A DNA stretch of 64,000 bases, from contig OX597831.1 in the NCBI GenBank assembly GCA_951406725.2, forward strand, positions 46,190,001 to 46,254,000, read 5' to 3'. Source of the DNA: Octopus vulgaris (lineage: Eukaryota). The position numbers were made by a program. This document shows, piece after piece, positions 6,001 through 57,000 of this stretch (the first letter of the stretch is position 1; each line of letters opens with the position of its first letter).

Positions 6001-9000
6001 GAGTTTTGGGAGTAGATTACGGATAATGACTACAATATATACAAGATAGCAGATATTTTGCAAAATGTATTTCACGGACTAATACATGCTCACTAGCTGT
6101 GAAAGGATAATAAATTATAAGACACACAAGTACATATAACTACCAAATGCGGTGTGTGTTACATGTTGCATTCGATAGTATATGTTCCTATATTTTTGTC
6201 TTTTTATATGTCGGAACGTGTGATTATTCTTGTATAATGCATTTAATCGATATTGAAAGCTAATTACCCCAACATAGCAAGGCCAACTCAAGAGAAATTT
6301 GATCGAAAGAAATAATTAGGATCTTTTCATTTTGAAGGCCAGATTTTCCTAGTTAACTAAAGAATTTGAAACTTCGTATACTGGTAGAATGTGTCAAAAG
6401 AAAACATAATTGTAAACCAAAATGAAAACGGAATTGTAATTTCTAAGTTTAACGTTGTTTAATAATTCGAATTTTAACCAATGGTATTCTTTCTTTCGAC
6501 TTCAAATCAATTATTGCCTCTCAAAATATTGTTACTGTGACGTAAAAGCTATTTTGTGACGTAGTTAACGTAAACATGCAAATAGCTAAAATGTAAACAT
6601 CTGCTTATCGTAAACAGCTAAATTCGCTTGGCATCGTACACAGCTTTTTCAGTTCCCTGAATTATATTTGAAACAAAATAAAAATAAAAAGATTCATACG
6701 CATAAATATCCATCCTTAGACATCAGAAAGATTAGAAATGCAACAAAAATTTAAAATACCGGATCTTTACCTTTTGACCTACAGATTTAAAAAAATAATT
6801 TTTTCTAACTGAACACTTTCAAACTTCGTGGAGTATATATAAAATTTGTGTAGATCCTAAATAGCTATACACACATGTATACAAACATATGCACATATAT
6901 ATATATATATATATATATATATAGACACCTATACACACATATTCTAATACATATGCATATATGTGTATATATTTATAATGTGTGTGTATTATAGATGCAT
7001 ACATTATATATATATAAAAGATGTTTACATACAATATATATATATTTTATATACATCTACATGTATATGTATGTATGAATATATAAGTACCACAGAATTT
7101 GAATCAAACTGTTTTGATCCATACACACACACACACACACACACACACACACACACACATACACACACACACACATACATACACACATACTAAAATTACA
7201 TCGTTGGAGCAGTAATTTATTTATGTATTTTTTGTTATACAATTTATTTTTAAGCTGAATCCCTATCCTGCCATTAACCCCTTTCTTATAAAATAGTTGA
7301 AGAATCTGGGGTGTAGGAATTGGGCCAGTATTGGAACTTTTAACTTCTTGCTCTCTATCTTATGATCTCCGAAATTTAAGAATCTTGTGTTAACTGGGCT
7401 CTTATTATTTACTCTGACTCTGCCACCACCTCAATGCAAAGACTATCAATATCAGAATCATCTTCACAACCACCACTGAGACATCCTAACATAATCAATG
7501 CCACTACTACTATCATCATCCACTGCCGCCACCACCACCACCACCTCTACAAAAACACCAACACTATAATTGCTGCCATCATTTACATCCACTGTCACCA
7601 CTACACCACCACACCACCACCACCACCACTGCCATGATAACCACATCTACCACAGCTGTTTGCTTACTGCTTTATCCACGCTGTTTAAAATTTTCACAAA
7701 ATAGCTGTCTACGTCACAGTAACACTATGCAGTTAATGATTTCAAATGAAAACAGACAATACGATTGGTTAAAATTCGCAGATTTAAACTACGTTTAAAC
7801 TTATGAAATACATTTTTCTCAAAAAAACAAGATGAAATTAATGTTTTCTTTTGACACATTCTACCAGTATACGAAGTTTCAGATTATTTAGTTAACTAGA
7901 AAAATCTGAAAGATCTGGCCTTCAAAATGAAAAGATCCAATAATTAAATGTGATGATGCCCTAATGTGTGTATCTACTAATTTTGAAGTCTCGTATAAGC
8001 TCGTGTAAGCACATACAGTTCCATCCAAAATGGACGCGATTACCAGCATCCAAAAGGCAGAGCTTGAAAAATCGCCTTTGAGAAGACACTATTGAAACAA
8101 TGTTACTCCCAAATAAATTATATATATGTATATTCAGACACACAGTACTCACCAAAAAGCTTTTAATTAGTTCAGTGTAGTTACATACTCTGATTGTTTT
8201 ATTTATTTTAATATAACGCTTAAATGTTTAGGTAAAATTATTTTACATGGTGAATATTTTAAACTGGGAAGAACTTGCCGTGTTCATTTCAGGTGAAATG
8301 TTTCATTTGCGAAAAGATATAAGGTGACGAATTCATTGAGTTTCGATATTTTGTTTTTATTTAGCTGTGAGGATGACTATCAAAAGTCTTTTGTACTCTA
8401 TCCATGCCACTGAGAGATGTCTTTTCCTGATATGATGTTTTTTCACGTGTGAAATACAAGCTGGAAAATGTTGTGAAACAAAGCAAGTATTTCCTTACGA
8501 AACTGCCGATTGAAAACTCCGTAAATACACGGATTAAGAACAGAGCTGATATAAAAAGAATAATTTAAGAATTTGTGAATCACTAGTTCTTTATCACTTG
8601 CAACGAATTCAAAATCTTTAACAAACAACCACCAGAATGCTCCAATGAAATGTGGTATGTAACTGATTATCCATACCAAGGTGATAACAAAGAATATTAT
8701 ATTAGACCGAGCTGGTGGTCTTTTACGACGGTCAAAAGGGATGCTACTACTATCTGTAGACTGACCTGACTGAAGTTTGGAACTGTTACGAGTTGTGGTT
8801 TCACGAAACTGATCTGCTCTTATTTTCTTAATTTTGTAAATTCTCCAAATGCGTATTCCAATTAATAAGTATATAATCAAAAGAATCATAAACAAACAAG
8901 AGCAAATGGATGTCAGAGTAGTATAATAGACTAAAGAATATAATGTGCCATTTATATAAGGAGAAAGTGCACACACTTCTCCAATATATCCACATTGTTC

Positions 9001-54000: not shown

Positions 54001-57000
54001 TGCTAGCCTCCAGTAGGCAGCCCCAGCAAGTTTTCACGTGACACTGTCTCAACTTTAACTGACCAATGAAGGCGCGTGGTGGACTAAATATTAGGTAAAT
54101 AATTCCTTAATCTATCCACAAACAAGTAACAAAAGCTTTTCAATAGACATGTGCACTTTCCTGCGGGAATGAACAAAACAGTACATCCTGGCTGTTTGAG
54201 GGAAAAGAACGAAAGCTACAACAATAAAAGGAAGCTTTTAGAGAAATGTAATCCCAACAGCTGATGATGAGGGTTGCATTTAGCAGAAAAACGACCTATC
54301 TTAAGCCTGGAATGTAGCTAACTGCCAAATCGTAGGTGTTTACATGGTGTTCACATGAACGGAAGTACATTCTACAAAGCTACTTAAAGCATGTATAAAA
54401 TAGTTGAGACGATTTCTTTCGCCTCTAATTTTTTTCGAGTCGATCTTCTTCACAATCATTCACACATTTAAATACTCTTGTCCTTCCTTCTGTTATTCTT
54501 GAATTCCTACATCTCTCTTCCCATTTCACTCTACATCTTTCTCTTTCTATACTCACAAAAATGCTTTTCTTTTTCAAACTGGATGGCCCTCCCTCAAGCA
54601 AGCGAAAGGATTCTTCGTACCTCAGTCACGTGATATCGCCCCTGCGCGAGTTTTTCATTAAATATAGCATTTTAAATTTTACTTACCCGACGGATTTTCG
54701 TAGGTCTTCATGCAGGCCTTCCGCATCAGCCGTCTTTGATGTTTTTCAACTATAATACAACTGGGCATAATTTTCTATGCAGCTTCGTTCAGGGTCTTTC
54801 AACCAGCCAAGCTGGAAACAAGTGTAGGTTTTTTTAACCATAAAAATATACTGTATGACATTCTAAAATAAAAGGAAATAAGTTTTGACGATGTACCAGT
54901 TTCCATATTTTCTGCTGTTATAATTATTGCTAATATACACTCCAGATGATATTGCCATCCAGTGAAGCGAACACGGAGTTTTCAAAGTGAGTGACAACAC
55001 CTAGTAGTCATGGACGTTAAATACGAATCGATGCGGCTAGCCGTAAACTGGAAGATAACTGAGAGCGGCCACGGTATCCGCTCAGAAAATATTTTCCTCT
55101 ACACTCACTGACTCACTGACTCACTGACTCACTGACTCACTCACTCACTCACTCATTCTCTCTCTCTCTTTCACACACACACACACACACACACAGTTAT
55201 ATTCTTTTCTTTTAAATTCCTTTTTCTTGTTTCAGTCAGTTGACTGCAGCCATGCTGGAGCACCGCCTTTAGTCGAAGAAATCGACTCCAGGACTTATTT
55301 AGTGACTCGCAGTGGGACTGAACCCGGAATCGTGTTGCTGGGAAGCAAGCTTCTTACCATACAGCCTTTTGATTAGGTTCATGTAGTTATGTAGTCTGAA
55401 AACGCTTTATTTGTTTAAACATAATATTTAGATATTCAAAAAACATTGTCTTTTATGGCGAATCCTGTTTGCAATTGCTTAAAAGCAATATAAAACACCT
55501 GTGAATGATCATAAAATGTTCAATTCAAGGAGTTCTGATATTTTGTCATTCTCATAACTGGAAAATTTTGCGAAATGAAGTCAGCAATTCATTACAAAAC
55601 TGTCGACTGAAAAGTCCGTAACTAAGAGCAGAGCTGAGATGAAAAGAATAGGTTAATAACACTTGGATATGTCGTATGAGGCTACGAAGGCATTGTTTTG
55701 ATTAATTGAGAAAGTTATTTCTTGTATTTTCAGGAGCGCGGGAAACCCACAAGGAAGCGGGTGCATCATTCCCAGTAAATACTAGGGACAAGGCCGCAGT
55801 TGCCACCCTTGTACCACTGAGGAATTTAACACCAAATCATCAACAGCGAACATTTGGACATCAAGAAAGAAACATTTCATTGCACGTGCAAGTAACTTAA
55901 ATTACAAAGTGCCAAGAATGACGCCTTGACCTCTATCCCATCTATTTAACCTAGGCAAATTCATGATGTAACTGGAAAATTGCGGATGTGGACAATTTAA
56001 ATAGGAGACATATACTCATTGGATTTCTAAACTGCATACTTATGTGCAACTTATACATAGCATATATACAAGATACCAGTTATATTGCGAAATGTATTTT
56101 ATGGACTAATACACGCTCACTACTTGTGAAAGCATAATAAATTATACGATACTCAAGTACTTATATCTACAAAATGCGGTGTGTGCTACATGTTGCATTC
56201 AATAGTATACGTTTCAATATTTTTGTATTTTCATATTTCGGTACGCGTGAATATTCACGTATTATGCATTTAATCAATACTGAAAGCTAATTATCCCAAC
56301 ATAGCAAGGCTAACGCAAAGGAAATCAGGAAGACAGAAATCACTAAATGAGATGATGCCCCAAATGTGTTTATCTACTAATTTTGAAGTCTCGTATAAGC
56401 TCGTGTATGCACATGTATTCGCATCCAAAATTGACGCGTTTACCAACATCCTAAAAGCAATGTTTGACATGATACCATTGAAGGCAGTGTTATTCCACAG
56501 ATAAATTTTTTCTCTCCGTTGTTGAAAATTTTGTATGCATTCAAAATTATTCAAAATTTATCATTTGGTTATAATATTTTTCTTGATAACCCTAAATTTT
56601 ATCTTTATACAACATAACAATATTGTTTAAATTAATCTCCTATCGTACCCCATGACAAAATTTCCTCTGTTTTATCATTATTGGTTTTATTAGCGTCTTG
56701 CCCTTTTAACTGGTAATTAACATCTTGTTTTGAGATCTTACACTAGCCAACCTCATTATAGCCAGTTACTTTATACTACTTCAAAATAATCTTGACAAGT
56801 TTTATGACTATACCCACTATGTTCTGTCAACTCTTTCCTGCCTTTTCCTAATAGACACAATTCTCTAGTTTTAGATTTGATAAACAAGACTAATAAATTA
56901 AAACTGAACCAAAATCAGTGACACGCTATGACCCAAACAATTTTTTTTTCCTGATGTCTTCTTACTCTATTAGAGTATTTAAGCAAAATTATATTAATGT

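What the first reader, a model, noticed from the sequence alone, without database searches (positions are those of the whole stretch)
8443..55660. Actively evolving tandem array of orphan class A GPCRs (4 intact plus 1 relic)
Seen: four same-strand uninterrupted GPCR ORFs, one per 9-14 kb unit, with divergence rising to the right (copies 1-3 close, copy 4 more distant, relic most decayed). The window starts mid-unit, so more copies probably lie to the left. All copies have a non-canonical TM6 (S/G-Y-I-P instead of CWxP). Knowledge: clustered birth-and-death of single-coding-exon class A GPCRs is typical of chemosensory receptor families. Inference: this may be a lineage-specific chemosensory or peptide-receptor expansion.
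[Added by the scan's program, not by the reader: the finding's places include an assembly gap (unread letters, written N; its length is only estimated) at 44562 to 44661. Whether the letters on both sides are continuous or in frame is not known: test that first.]
Basis: partly seen in the sequence, partly recalled or inferred. Interest (0 to 1): 0.75.

Follow-up and report, generated by a model that had tools for sequence, protein, structure and literature searches.

The report
Young tandem array of octopus orphan GPCRs
An octopus genome stretch carries four intact, recently duplicated copies of an orphan receptor gene plus decayed remnants, an ordinary kind of gene-family expansion whose coding parts change unusually fast.

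Summary
Four uninterrupted minus-strand ORFs (352-360 aa) are class A GPCRs (Pfam 7tm_1, E 1e-26 to 1e-29). They sit in repeated units about 11-14 kb apart. A 45-49 codon TM7/helix-8 relic lies at 55531-55674. The assembly gap lies in a LINE element in the c3-c4 spacer and touches no receptor ORF.

All 12 named close relatives among 16 hits are Octopus proteins carrying six different peptide-receptor names. c4 pairs with an O. sinensis protein (92%). c1-c3 form a clade with no ortholog in the protein set searched.

The fold is peptide-receptor-like, at 17-22% identity to solved receptors. The S/G-Y-I-P TM6 is real, but it marks a wide molluscan clade: 0 of 79 aligned sequences have Trp at 6.48.

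dN/dS is about 1, yet the frames stay open. Changes avoid conserved columns and favour the extracellular half. c3 differs from c1/c2 two to four times more in coding than in non-coding DNA.

Tandem, fast-evolving cephalopod GPCR expansions are already published, so this is a new member of a known kind. Ligand and tissue are untested.

The parts
8443..9501 (-). c1, intact single-coding-exon class A GPCR, 352 aa; TM6 S-Y-I-P; C-terminus ends LVFHT
   Evidence: ORF. Pfam 7tm_1 E 5.7e-27. 94% aa identity to c2.
20824..21882 (-). c2, intact GPCR, 352 aa; TM6 G-Y-I-P
   Evidence: ORF. 7tm_1 E 1.1e-26. Sister of c1 with support 100/99.
31791..32867 (-). c3, intact GPCR, 358 aa; TM6 G-Y-I-P; C-terminus LCKKQNIETQ
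   Evidence: ORF. 7tm_1 E 9.9e-29. AlphaFold2 model with pLDDT 93.1 and pTM 0.89 shows seven helices, helix 8 and a beta-hairpin ECL2.
45602..46684 (-). c4, intact GPCR, 360 aa, the older paralogue; pairs with an O. sinensis protein
   Evidence: ORF. 7tm_1 E 3e-26. 92.2% identity to P0001. Clade support 100/100.
55531..55674 (-). Relic holding TM7 and helix 8 only; NPxxY deleted; premature TGA after IFQL
   Evidence: tblastn 46-55% identity over 41-49 aa, E down to 4e-7. Stop-to-stop frame 55552-55701. DNA alignment. No Pfam match.
56062..56507 (.). Copy of the 3' flank segment of the units, with no coding sequence next to it: a trace of a further decayed unit
   Evidence: 79-86% identity to 31129-31577, 6035-6298 and 7939-8067. 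No receptor match at E<1 to its right.
1..8442 (.). Spacer S0. It matches spacers S1-S3 from window base 3 onward, which implies a unit continuing to the left.
   Evidence: Self-blastn blocks at 94-96% identity. K2P 0.029-0.034.
9502..20823 (.). Spacer S1 between c1 and c2. Private 770-nt insertion at 15246-16014. The 1.6-kb insertion at 18661-20319 is shared with unit A.
21883..31790 (.). Spacer S2 between c2 and c3. Contains a (TA)n run of about 1.65 kb at 22170-23818.
32868..45601 (.). Spacer S3 between c3 and c4. Holds the LINE insertion and the assembly gap.
41244..44561 (-). LINE-type retrotransposon ORF (endonuclease, reverse transcriptase, zf-RVT). It is open up to the gap edge, so its 5' end is lost in the gap.
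   Evidence: Pfam RVT_1 E 1.2e-30, zf-RVT 4e-8, Exo_endo_phos 3.8e-6. Stop-to-stop frame.
44562..44661 (.). Assembly gap (100 N). It lies outside every receptor ORF.
9502..9568 (-). Conserved 65-nt 5' leader of the coding exon and its CAG|G splice acceptor (c1). The same feature ends at 21949 in c2, 32934 in c3 and 46751 in c4.
   Evidence: DNA alignment: the pyrimidine tract plus CAG|G is identical in 4 of 4 copies. The RefSeq-derived O. sinensis model P0001 carries an N-terminal extension that continues the c4 leader frame.

Best explanation
This is a young tandem array of orphan class A (rhodopsin-type) GPCR genes in an octopus genome, from a species close to O. sinensis but not matching its reference proteins.

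Origin. An older pair of genes, c4 and the ancestor of c1-c3, was followed by repeated duplication of a unit of about 10-12 kb holding gene plus spacer. The likely mechanism is unequal crossing-over between units. This gave c3, then c1 and c2, and probably a further copy left of the window. Older units on the right have decayed into a TM7 relic and a lone 3' flank among transposons.

Gene structure. Each gene has one coding exon, preceded by a conserved splice acceptor. This implies an upstream non-coding or short coding exon.

Protein. The proteins keep the class A signalling core: N1.50, D2.50, DRY, Y5.58, P6.50, NPxxY, helix 8 and the TM3-ECL2 cysteines. They also have a peptide-receptor-like beta-hairpin ECL2. 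At the toggle position they carry Tyr instead of Trp, as does the whole molluscan clade they belong to.

Selection. The copies are kept open by selection, while residues on the extracellular, ligand-facing half change quickly.

Proposed function (inferred, not shown). They are working receptors whose ligand specificities are diverging. The most likely ligands are peptide or protein-like cues that differ between species. Signalling would run through the ordinary G-protein route.
For: Shown directly:
- 4 of 4 ORFs match 7tm_1.
- Whole-unit repeats, each with private indels.
- Tree: c1+c2 100/99, c1-c3 100/100, c4+P0001 100/100.
- 12 of 12 named proteins among the 16 close hits are Octopus. All 5 O. 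sinensis hits lie on one 67.9-Mb contig. 6 of the 7 O. bimaculoides hits lie on one 55.6-Mb contig.
- Splice acceptor identical in 4 of 4 copies.
- Model pLDDT 93.1, with ECL2 strands 161-168 and 172-180.
- Foldseek best matches are opioid, orexin, neurotensin and ghrelin receptors at 17-22% identity.

Evidence that the frames are maintained:
- 0 frame-breaking gaps in six pairwise CDS alignments (0-7 gap events per pair, all multiples of three). In the six spacer alignments, 65 of 81 gap events are not multiples of three.
- The simulated chance that no stop codon arises is 0.04 for the c1-c3 clade and 0.0006 for the four-copy tree.
- Variable residues fall on columns that also vary in relatives (Mann-Whitney p 6e-4 to 3e-11).

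Evidence for fast change:
- dN/dS is 1.02 (c1-c2), 1.29 (c1-c3), 1.47 (c2-c3) and 0.80-0.90 against c4.
- c1-c3 CDS has 70 differences in 1056 nt, against 12 in 750 in the near flanks (p 1e-7) and 185 in 5511 in the far spacer (p 3e-6).
- Non-synonymous sites alone: 63 in 827 against 185 in 5511 (p 7e-8).
- A sliding window peaks at 9.3-9.7% over about codons 221-321, against 1.3-1.9% in the flanks.
- Among c1-c3, 36 of 172 extracellular-half residues vary against 9 of 118 in the intracellular core (p 0.0026).
Against: - dN/dS near 1 is also what neutral decay gives.
- Split by family conservation, omega is 1.06-1.71 in the variable half, and none of these values is significantly above 1 (binomial p 0.14-0.54).
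- For the youngest pair, c1-c2, open frames carry no weight: the simulated P of no stop is 0.33.
- The c1-c2 CDS divergence (28 in 1059) equals that of the far spacer (135 in 4701, p 0.76).
- Synonymous divergence between c3 and c1/c2 is also somewhat above the spacer rate (p 0.04 and 0.13). Part of the coding excess could therefore come from gene conversion by unseen paralogues, or from homogenised spacers.
- The indel comparison is generous, because octopus spacers are rich in microsatellites that gain and lose bases easily.
- The extracellular versus intracellular split was defined after seeing the model.
- No expression, ligand or read-depth evidence could be obtained.
- c1 and c2 have lost the C-terminal Cys-containing tail through an insertion.
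Confidence: 0.62

Rival explanations
1. The young copies (c1-c3) are redundant duplicates drifting neutrally towards pseudogenes. Their frames are simply not broken yet, and only c4 is a working gene.
For: - dN/dS is 1.02-1.47 among c1-c3.
- No partition has omega significantly above 1.
- P(no stop) is 0.33 for c1-c2 and only 0.04 for the clade.
- A relic and a lone flank show that units of this array do die.
- c1 and c2 lost the conserved C-terminal tail.
Against: - No frame-shifting indel in any CDS alignment, while 65 of 81 spacer gap events would shift the frame.
- Replacements avoid columns conserved in distant relatives (p 6e-4).
- Replacements avoid the intracellular core: 9 of 118 residues against 36 of 172 in the extracellular half.
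- The non-synonymous rate between c3 and c1/c2 is 2.4-2.5 times the spacer rate. Neutral drift cannot exceed that rate.
- All class A core residues are intact in 4 of 4 copies.
Confidence: 0.22
2. The excess coding divergence comes from gene conversion, not selection on the protein. Either tracts were copied into the exons from diverged paralogues outside the window, or the spacers were homogenised while the exons were not.
For: - Spacer distances are star-like (0.029-0.034 for all six pairs), while the exons give a clear ((c1,c2),c3) tree.
- Near-gene flanks (0.010-0.025) are less diverged than far spacers.
- Synonymous divergence is also raised.
- 5 sites show patterns that conflict with the tree: 4 with c1=c4 and c2=c3, and 1 with c2=c4 and c1=c3.
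- Divergence peaks within one 300-nt window.
Against: - Polarised with c4, derived sites are split between the lineages, 28 on the c1/c2 stem and 24 on c3.
- These sites are interleaved along the whole exon rather than forming tracts.
- No donor is visible in the window.
- The 1.6-kb insertion and the C-terminal insertion shared by units A and B agree with the exon tree.
Confidence: 0.2
3. The array is an assembly artefact: uncollapsed haplotypes or a mis-scaffolded repeat written out as tandem copies.
For: - There is an assembly gap in the c3-c4 spacer.
- A 140-nt stretch is present on both sides of the gap at 93.6% identity.
- Read depth could not be checked.
Against: - c1, c2 and c3 lie on one gap-free stretch (1-44561).
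- Four versions of the unit exist. Two haplotypes cannot give four.
- The units differ by 3% in the spacers. Each has private structural changes: a 1.24-kb deletion in A, a 770-nt insertion and long (TA)n in B, no 1.6-kb insertion in C, and a LINE in D.
- The exons differ by 2.7-15%.
Confidence: 0.05
4. The genes are conserved neuropeptide receptors (CCK, orexin, vasotocin or NMU type), as the automatic names of their relatives suggest.
For: - The closest solved sequences and folds are peptide receptors.
- ECL2 forms a beta-hairpin.
- The source names of the Octopus relatives are peptide-receptor names.
Against: - The 12 named relatives carry six different receptor names.
- Identity to solved receptors is 17-22%. 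No single receptor family stands out: E 5e-21, 3e-17, 1e-14, 1e-14, 2e-14 for five different families.
- Close relatives are Octopus only.
- The next tier is a set of molluscan expansions, again with mixed names.
- Trp6.48, which I recall as kept by the solved peptide receptors, is absent.
Confidence: 0.05

Closest known systems
Cephalopod-specific class A GPCR expansions (groups 1 and 2 of Ritschard et al. 2019, PMC6408891; Results and Discussion read)
   Same: [quoted passage not shown]
- Tandem co-location.
- Branches with omega above 1.
- Annotation by mixed peptide-receptor names.
   Different: - Membership of group 1 or group 2 could not be tested, because the paper's gene identifiers could not be matched to my protein ids (supplement files listed, not opened).
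- The paper dates its groups to the coleoid ancestor. Here three copies differ by only about 3% in non-coding DNA and have no partner among the O. sinensis or O. bimaculoides proteins found.
Lineage-specific expansions of class A GPCRs in Lophotrochozoa (Nath et al. 2025, PMC11886862; passages read)
   Same: Tandem arrangement, lack of one-to-one orthologues between species, and a proposed chemosensory role. Cephalopods are reported to have 3-146 such genes.
   Different: - That paper reports that cephalopod members lack the TM3-ECL2 disulfide in its models. Here C97 and C178 are invariant in 79 of 79 aligned sequences.
- c4 does have a one-to-one partner.
Aplysia candidate chemoreceptors AcCRa-c (Cummins et al. 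2009, PMC2700072; passages read)
   Same: - Mostly single-exon rhodopsin-type genes of 319-364 aa.
- Clustered 9-13 kb apart in the same orientation.
- One pair separated by a non-LTR retrotransposon.
- Pseudogenes present.
   Different: - AcCR families have an ERC motif in place of DRY and are expressed in rhinophore and tentacle. Here DRY is kept and expression is unknown.
- Direct relationship was not tested. An Atlas cluster named 'Chemosensory receptor A' appears only at rank 10 by features.
Solved vertebrate peptide receptors (NMUR1, CCK1R, NTSR1, OX1R/OX2R, opioid receptors)
   Same: Overall fold, ECL2 beta-hairpin, DRY, NPxxY and helix 8.
   Different: - 17-22% identity.
- Tyr in place of Trp at 6.48 and Ser/Gly in place of Cys at 6.47.
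- Trp at 6.44.
- No Pro at 5.50 (my numbering from the anchors).
Vertebrate odorant and bitter-taste receptors
   Same: - Tyr at the toggle position 6.48 (mOR256-3 in PMC9442423 and T2Rs in PMC12294341; passages read).
- Single coding exon, tandem arrays and pseudogenes (recalled general knowledge).
   Different: No sequence relationship beyond class A. 7tm_4 was not among the Pfam matches listed for the four copies. The resemblance is a lead, not a test.

Membership tests
Class A (rhodopsin-type) GPCR, Pfam 7tm_1 | Match to the 7tm_1 profile above the gathering score | tested here: met
   4 of 4 copies score 92.9-101 bits against a cut-off of 30.5, covering profile positions 1 or 2 to 260 of 260.
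Class A (rhodopsin-type) GPCR, Pfam 7tm_1 | Seven transmembrane helices plus helix 8 | tested here: met
   AlphaFold2 model of c3, pLDDT 93.1. Helices at 26-52, 58-86, 94-127, 136-160, 188-240, 264-294 and 304-331, and helix 8 at 333-357.
Class A (rhodopsin-type) GPCR, Pfam 7tm_1 | Core motifs N1.50, D2.50, D/ERY, NPxxY and the TM3-ECL2 cysteine pair | tested here: met
   GN, CDF, DRY, NPxIY and C97/C178 are invariant in the four copies. D70, C97, C178 and Y212 are invariant in 79 of 79 sequences. The assignment of motif numbers is mine.
Class A (rhodopsin-type) GPCR, Pfam 7tm_1 | CWxP motif in TM6 | tested here: not met
   The motif reads S/G-Y-I-P. 0 of 79 relatives have Trp at 6.48: Phe 38, Tyr 36, Cys 2, Ser 2, gap 1. 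P6.50 is kept. Some accepted class A receptors also lack this motif (PMC9442423, passage), so membership stands.
Orthologue of one known neuropeptide receptor (CCK, orexin, vasotocin, NMU) | One-to-one orthology with a characterised receptor across phyla | tested here: not met
   Close hits are Octopus only: 12 of 12 named among 16. Five different receptor families score E 5e-21 to 2e-14. Source names conflict. No tree with characterised lophotrochozoan receptors was built.
Cephalopod or lophotrochozoan lineage-specific class A expansion | Tandem copies in one orientation | tested here: met
   Four genes and one relic lie on the minus strand within 47 kb.
Cephalopod or lophotrochozoan lineage-specific class A expansion | No one-to-one orthologues between species | tested here: inconclusive
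   c1-c3 have none among the proteins found, but c4 pairs with O. sinensis P0001. No octopus genome DNA was available to look for unannotated copies.
Cephalopod or lophotrochozoan lineage-specific class A expansion | Placement inside group 1 or group 2 of Ritschard et al. 2019 | not tested
   The paper's identifiers could not be linked to my protein ids. Its supplement tables were listed but not read.
Chemosensory receptor | Expression in chemosensory tissue (suckers, olfactory organ, lips) | not testable with these tools
   No transcriptome data were in reach.
Chemosensory receptor | Response to an external chemical cue | not testable with these tools
   Needs heterologous expression and ligand screening.
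Chemosensory receptor | Genomic habits of chemoreceptor families: single coding exon, clusters, pseudogenes, fast change on the ligand side | tested here: met
   These habits are shared with other fast-evolving receptor families, so they do not settle the function.

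The most novel reading that the evidence does not exclude
The three youngest copies would be under strong diversifying selection on their ligand-facing half. This is suggested by their single coding exon being the fastest-changing stretch of the whole 11-kb unit. 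Non-synonymous divergence between c3 and c1/c2 is 2.4-2.5 times that of the surrounding non-coding DNA. On this reading the array is a species-specific set of receptors for rapidly changing external peptide or protein cues from mates, prey or microbes. It would be a G-protein-coupled arm of octopus chemical sensing alongside the published ion-channel chemotactile receptors.
Probability: 0.25. Interest if true: 0.6.

Novelty: new member of a known kind. Interest (0 to 1): 0.35.

Why it matters
Octopus chemical sensing is currently explained mainly by ion-channel chemotactile receptors. Nath et al. 2025 (passages read) note that cephalopods have few lineage-specific class A GPCRs and find this puzzling.

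A very young array, still duplicating and still losing units, gives a compact test case. Its exons outrun their own non-coding surroundings. Only four genes need to be assayed, and the few dozen differences between them already point to candidate ligand-contact residues.

It also shows that the Tyr/Phe-for-Trp toggle is a clade-wide molluscan trait. That matters for modelling how these receptors are activated.

As a genome feature, however, it is one more example of a published pattern.

Tried and rejected
- Gene conversion from c4. Derived sites polarised with c4 are split 28 to 24 between lineages and interleaved, with no tracts. This was rejected as the sole cause. Conversion from unseen copies remains open.\n- CpG decay as the cause of the coding excess. 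c1-c3 differences are 30 transitions to 47 transversions, so this is unlikely.\n- More relic pieces. A relaxed tblastn over 50000-64000 and 1-8400 found nothing below E 0.6 apart from the TM7 piece.\n- Other genes in a spacer. A stop-to-stop scan of unit C (24300-31790) gave only low-complexity frames. The other spacers were not scanned this way.\n- RNA genes. 0 Rfam matches at gathering score in the window.\n- Exact look-up of the four proteins. 0 of 4 are in the collection.\n- Look-up of the nameless distant representatives. This could not be made because the database was off. The taxa of P0017-P0164 are therefore unknown, except those that reappeared with names.\n- Partitioned omega. Pocket residues were therefore assigned by helix halves, not by distance.\n- Not usable or not used.

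Full report
**What is there**

The window is AT-rich (GC about 0.29-0.43 outside a LINE and some microsatellites). On the minus strand it carries four uninterrupted ORFs:
- c1, 8443-9501, 352 aa
- c2, 20824-21882, 352 aa
- c3, 31791-32867, 358 aa
- c4, 45602-46684, 360 aa

All four match Pfam 7tm_1 end to end (E 5.7e-27, 1.1e-26, 9.9e-29 and 3e-26; cut-off 30.5 bits). Identity to c1 is 94% for c2, 86% for c3 and 71% for c4.

A fifth match at 55531-55674 covers only TM7 and helix 8. It is 46-55% identical over 41-49 residues, with E down to 4e-7. It has lost the NP of NPxxY through a three-codon deletion and has a TGA after IFQL. It does not match Pfam on its own.

**The repeat is the whole unit, not just the gene**

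Self-comparison shows blocks of 4-5.5 kb at 92-96% identity between the four spacers. Counting substitutions only, K2P is 0.029-0.034 for all six spacer pairs. The homology begins at window base 3, so the window opens inside a unit. A further gene about 1 kb to the left is the simplest expectation (inference).

Each unit has private changes:
- Unit A lacks 1.24 kb that B, C and D have.
- Unit B has a 770-nt insertion at 15246-16014 and a (TA)n run of about 1.65 kb.
- Units A and B share a 1.6-kb insertion (6318-7939 and 18661-20319).
- Unit D carries a LINE.

c1 and c2 also share an insertion of about 100 nt at the last codons, which replaces LCKKQNIETQ by LVFHT.

Four different versions cannot be two haplotypes. 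c1-c3 lie on one gap-free stretch.

To the right of c4 only fragments of units remain:
- 47189-47796 (5' flank)
- 50876-51358 and 55208-55366 (spacer parts)
- the TM7 relic
- 56062-56507, a copy of the 3' flank segment at 79-86% with no coding sequence beside it

These fragments lie among transposon pieces (RVT_1 at 49204-49809; Mos1-type HTH_48 and Transposase_1 at 57423-58381).

**The gap**

The 100 N at 44562-44661 lie 941 nt 3' of the c4 stop, so no receptor frame is affected. On the minus strand a LINE ORF (Exo_endo_phos, RVT_1, zf-RVT) stays open from 41244 up to the gap edge. The gap therefore swallows the element's 5' end. Any frame read across it is meaningless because its length is estimated.

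Spacer-type DNA lies on both sides in the expected order: 40117-40509 and 45236-45588 match 30749-31145 and 31001-31356. However, 140 nt occur on both sides at 93.6% identity.

The linkage of c4 and the relic to c1-c3 is therefore probable and rests on the scaffold join.

**Gene structure**

A pyrimidine tract and CAG|G lie 65 nt 5' of the ATG and are identical in 4 of 4 copies. The 65-nt leader is far better conserved between c4 and c1-c3 than the DNA 5' of it.

The O. sinensis protein P0001 (400 aa) carries an N-terminal extension that continues the reading of the c4 leader. This fits a spliced upstream exon. The coding exon is single and uninterrupted, but the gene probably is not intron-free. 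I did not look for the upstream exon.

**Relatives**

The word-indexed search with c3 gave 16 proteins at E<=1e-5 among 1712 candidates. Twelve have names, and all twelve are Octopus (5 O. sinensis, 7 O. bimaculoides). Their names are vasotocin-like, CCK-A-like, orexin type 2, mesotocin, RYamide and nematocin receptor.

The 5 O. sinensis proteins share one 67.9-Mb contig, and 6 of the 7 O. bimaculoides proteins share one 55.6-Mb contig. The subfamily is therefore clustered on one chromosome in both species.

None of the four window proteins is in the collection letter for letter (0 of 4). c4 is 92.2% identical to P0001, and c1-c3 are 71.9-72.7% identical to it.

In a maximum-likelihood tree of 30 rows:
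- c1+c2 has support 100/99.
- c1-c3 has 100/100.
- c4+P0001 has 100/100.
- The two groups join with weak support (84/87) inside a 9-row clade (100/98).

The exhaustive search found 5552 proteins at E<=0.001. After three proteins at 40-46% identity and one 222-aa fragment at 54%, identity falls steeply to about 30%.

A profile search gave 44 proteins at E<=1e-20 among 8000 scored candidates: 12 Octopus, 18 Haliotis, one each from Bulinus, Mytilus, Lymnaea and Acanthaster, and 10 unnamed. Their names are again mixed, including CCK-, orexin-, bombesin-, C5a-, adrenergic- and NMU-like.

Against solved structures the best sequences are NMUR1 (4.8e-21), CCK1R (2.9e-17), NTSR1 (1.2e-14), OX2R (1.4e-14) and V1aR (1.7e-14).

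The family is thus an orphan, Octopus-restricted branch of a molluscan class A expansion. It is not an orthologue of one known receptor. The look-up that would have named the distant representatives could not be made.

**Protein**

With a 79-sequence alignment (A2), AlphaFold2 gave a confident model of c3 (pLDDT 93.1, pTM 0.89). It shows seven helices, helix 8, a two-stranded ECL2 (161-168, 172-180) and a low-confidence ICL3.

The best Foldseek matches in the PDB are opioid, orexin-1, neurotensin-1 and ghrelin receptors (E about 1e-11, TM-score normalised to the target 0.61-0.84, 17-22% identity).

The four copies keep GN (1.50), D2.50, DRY, Y5.58, P6.50, NPxIY and the C97/C178 pair (the numbering is mine, from those anchors).

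TM6 reads W-I-I-(S/G)-Y-I-P. At 6.48, none of the 79 aligned sequences has Trp (Phe 38, Tyr 36, Cys 2, Ser 2, gap 1). At 6.47, 65 of 79 have Ser.

Tyr at 6.48 is described as the toggle residue in a mouse odorant receptor (PMC9442423, passages) and in bitter-taste receptors (PMC12294341, passage). This is a resemblance only.

**How the copies evolve**

Nei-Gojobori dN/dS is 1.02 (c1-c2), 1.29 (c1-c3), 1.47 (c2-c3) and 0.80-0.90 against c4. On its own this fits neutral drift. Four results argue that the frames are nevertheless maintained.

1. No frame-shifting indels. The six pairwise CDS alignments have 0-7 gap events each, all multiples of three. In the six spacer alignments, 65 of 81 gap events are not multiples of three. 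The spacers are rich in microsatellites, so this contrast is somewhat generous.
2. Stop codons are avoided. Random placement of the observed numbers of substitutions leaves the frame free of stops with probability 0.33 (c1-c2), 0.04 (c1-c3 clade) and 0.0006 (whole tree).
3. Conserved columns are spared. Residues that vary among the copies sit on columns that also vary in distant relatives (mean entropy 2.79 against 2.37, p 6e-4 for c1-c3; p 4e-7 with c4 included).
4. The intracellular core is spared. Among c1-c3, 36 of 172 residues of the extracellular half vary, against 9 of 118 in the inner helix halves plus ICL1 and ICL2 (p 0.0026). ICL3 (10 of 41) and the tail (5 of 27) also vary. This split was drawn after seeing the model.

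**The coding exon outruns its surroundings**

Differences in the coding exon compared with non-coding DNA:

| Pair | CDS | Near flanks | Far spacer |
|---|---|---|---|
| c1-c3 | 70 in 1056 nt | 12 in 750 (p 1.2e-7) | 185 in 5511 (p 3.1e-6) |
| c2-c3 | 69 in 1056 nt | 17 in 751 (p 1.6e-5) | 150 in 4658 (p 2.0e-6) |
| c1-c2 | 28 in 1059 nt | 41 in 3248 (p 0.003) | 135 in 4701 (p 0.76) |

Non-synonymous sites alone give 63 in 827 (c1-c3) and 64 in 826 (c2-c3), which is 2.4-2.5 times the spacer rate (p about 1e-8). For c1-c2 the excess holds only against the near flanks.

Sliding windows show the peak inside the exon: 9.3-9.7% over about codons 221-321 (ICL3 to TM7), against 1.3-1.9% in the flanks.

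Caveats:
- Synonymous divergence is also somewhat raised (p 0.04 and 0.13).
- When codons are split by family conservation, omega is 0.54-1.06 in the conserved half and 1.06-1.71 in the variable half, never significantly above 1.
- Polarised with c4, the changes are shared between the c1/c2 stem (28 sites) and c3 (24 sites) and are interleaved along the exon. Four sites support c1=c4 with c2=c3, and one supports c2=c4 with c1=c3.

I read this as diversifying change on the ligand side over a conserved signalling core. Neutral drift of the youngest copies, and conversion from unseen paralogues, remain live rivals.

**Comparison with what is published**

- Ritschard et al. 2019 (PMC6408891, Results and Discussion read) describe two cephalopod-specific class A groups of 63 and 21 genes. 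They sit inside a molluscan neuropeptide-receptor-like clade, show tandem co-location and branches with omega above 1, and are expressed mostly outside the brain (testis and gills among others).
- Nath et al. 2025 (PMC11886862, passages read) describe tandem lineage-specific class A expansions across Lophotrochozoa, with 3-146 such genes in cephalopods.
- Jiang et al. 2022 (PMC9795677, passages read) report tandem duplication of expanded families on octopod chromosomes.
- Cummins et al. 2009 (PMC2700072, passages read) describe single-exon clustered candidate chemoreceptors in Aplysia spaced 9-13 kb apart. One pair is separated by a non-LTR retrotransposon.

The present array fits this known kind. 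Two things are added here: the youth of three copies, and the exon-versus-flank contrast. I could not place the genes in Ritschard's group 1 or group 2, and so could not borrow their expression data, because the identifiers could not be matched. The supplement files were listed but not read.

**What stayed unchecked**

- Read depth and spanning reads.
- The scaffold beyond the window.
- Copy number in other octopus genomes.
- Transcripts and ligands.

**Verdict**

This is a real, young, still-turning-over tandem array of orphan Octopus class A GPCRs with a peptide-receptor-like fold. It is a new member of a known kind. The lead worth following is that the coding exons change faster than their non-coding surroundings.

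Noticed in passing
41244-44561 (minus strand), gap 44562-44661: A LINE-type element has an ORF of more than 1,100 codons, open up to the gap edge (endonuclease, RVT_1, zf-RVT). Its GC is 0.43-0.52 against about 0.33 around it. It looks recently active, and its 5' end is lost in the assembly gap.
   Followed up: partly
22170-23818; compare 9789-10020 and 33129-33237: The (TA)n run just 5' of c2 has grown to about 1.65 kb (824 copies). The same site has 232 nt 5' of c1 and 109 nt 5' of c3. A microsatellite this large next to the putative promoter region might affect expression of c2.
   Followed up: no
8355-8475 and 20736-20856 (c1 and c2 3' ends): An insertion of about 100 nt shared by c1 and c2 replaces the C-terminal LCKKQNIETQ by LVFHT. 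It removes the only Cys after helix 8, a possible lipid anchor site (my reading).
   Followed up: partly
57423-58381 (plus strand): Mos1/mariner-type transposase in two frames (HTH_48 E 7.5e-10; Transposase_1 E 7.2e-24). It sits where the coding part of a further decayed unit would be expected.
   Followed up: partly
59399-61616: An AT-rich satellite-like block (GC about 0.19) with a long period of roughly 480-520 nt, built around TAT/TTA runs.
   Followed up: no
15037-15921 (plus strand): A 294-aa ORF with no Pfam match lies largely in an insertion private to unit B (15246-16014). It is probably the tail of a retroelement.
   Followed up: no
40364-40503 and 45236-45375: The same 140 nt lie on both sides of the LINE and gap at 93.6% identity. 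This is too diverged for a fresh target-site duplication or a contig overlap. It may mark the junction between the young units and the older c4 unit.
   Followed up: partly
c1-c4 codons 149, 284, 310, 311 of the four-copy alignment: At four sites c1 agrees with c4 and c2 agrees with c3, against the tree. One of them is the S/G at TM6 position 6.47. This could be parallel change or short conversion between neighbours.
   Followed up: no
49204-49809 (minus strand): A fragment of a reverse transcriptase (RVT_1 E 4.2e-8) lies in the decayed region between c4 and the relic.
   Followed up: no
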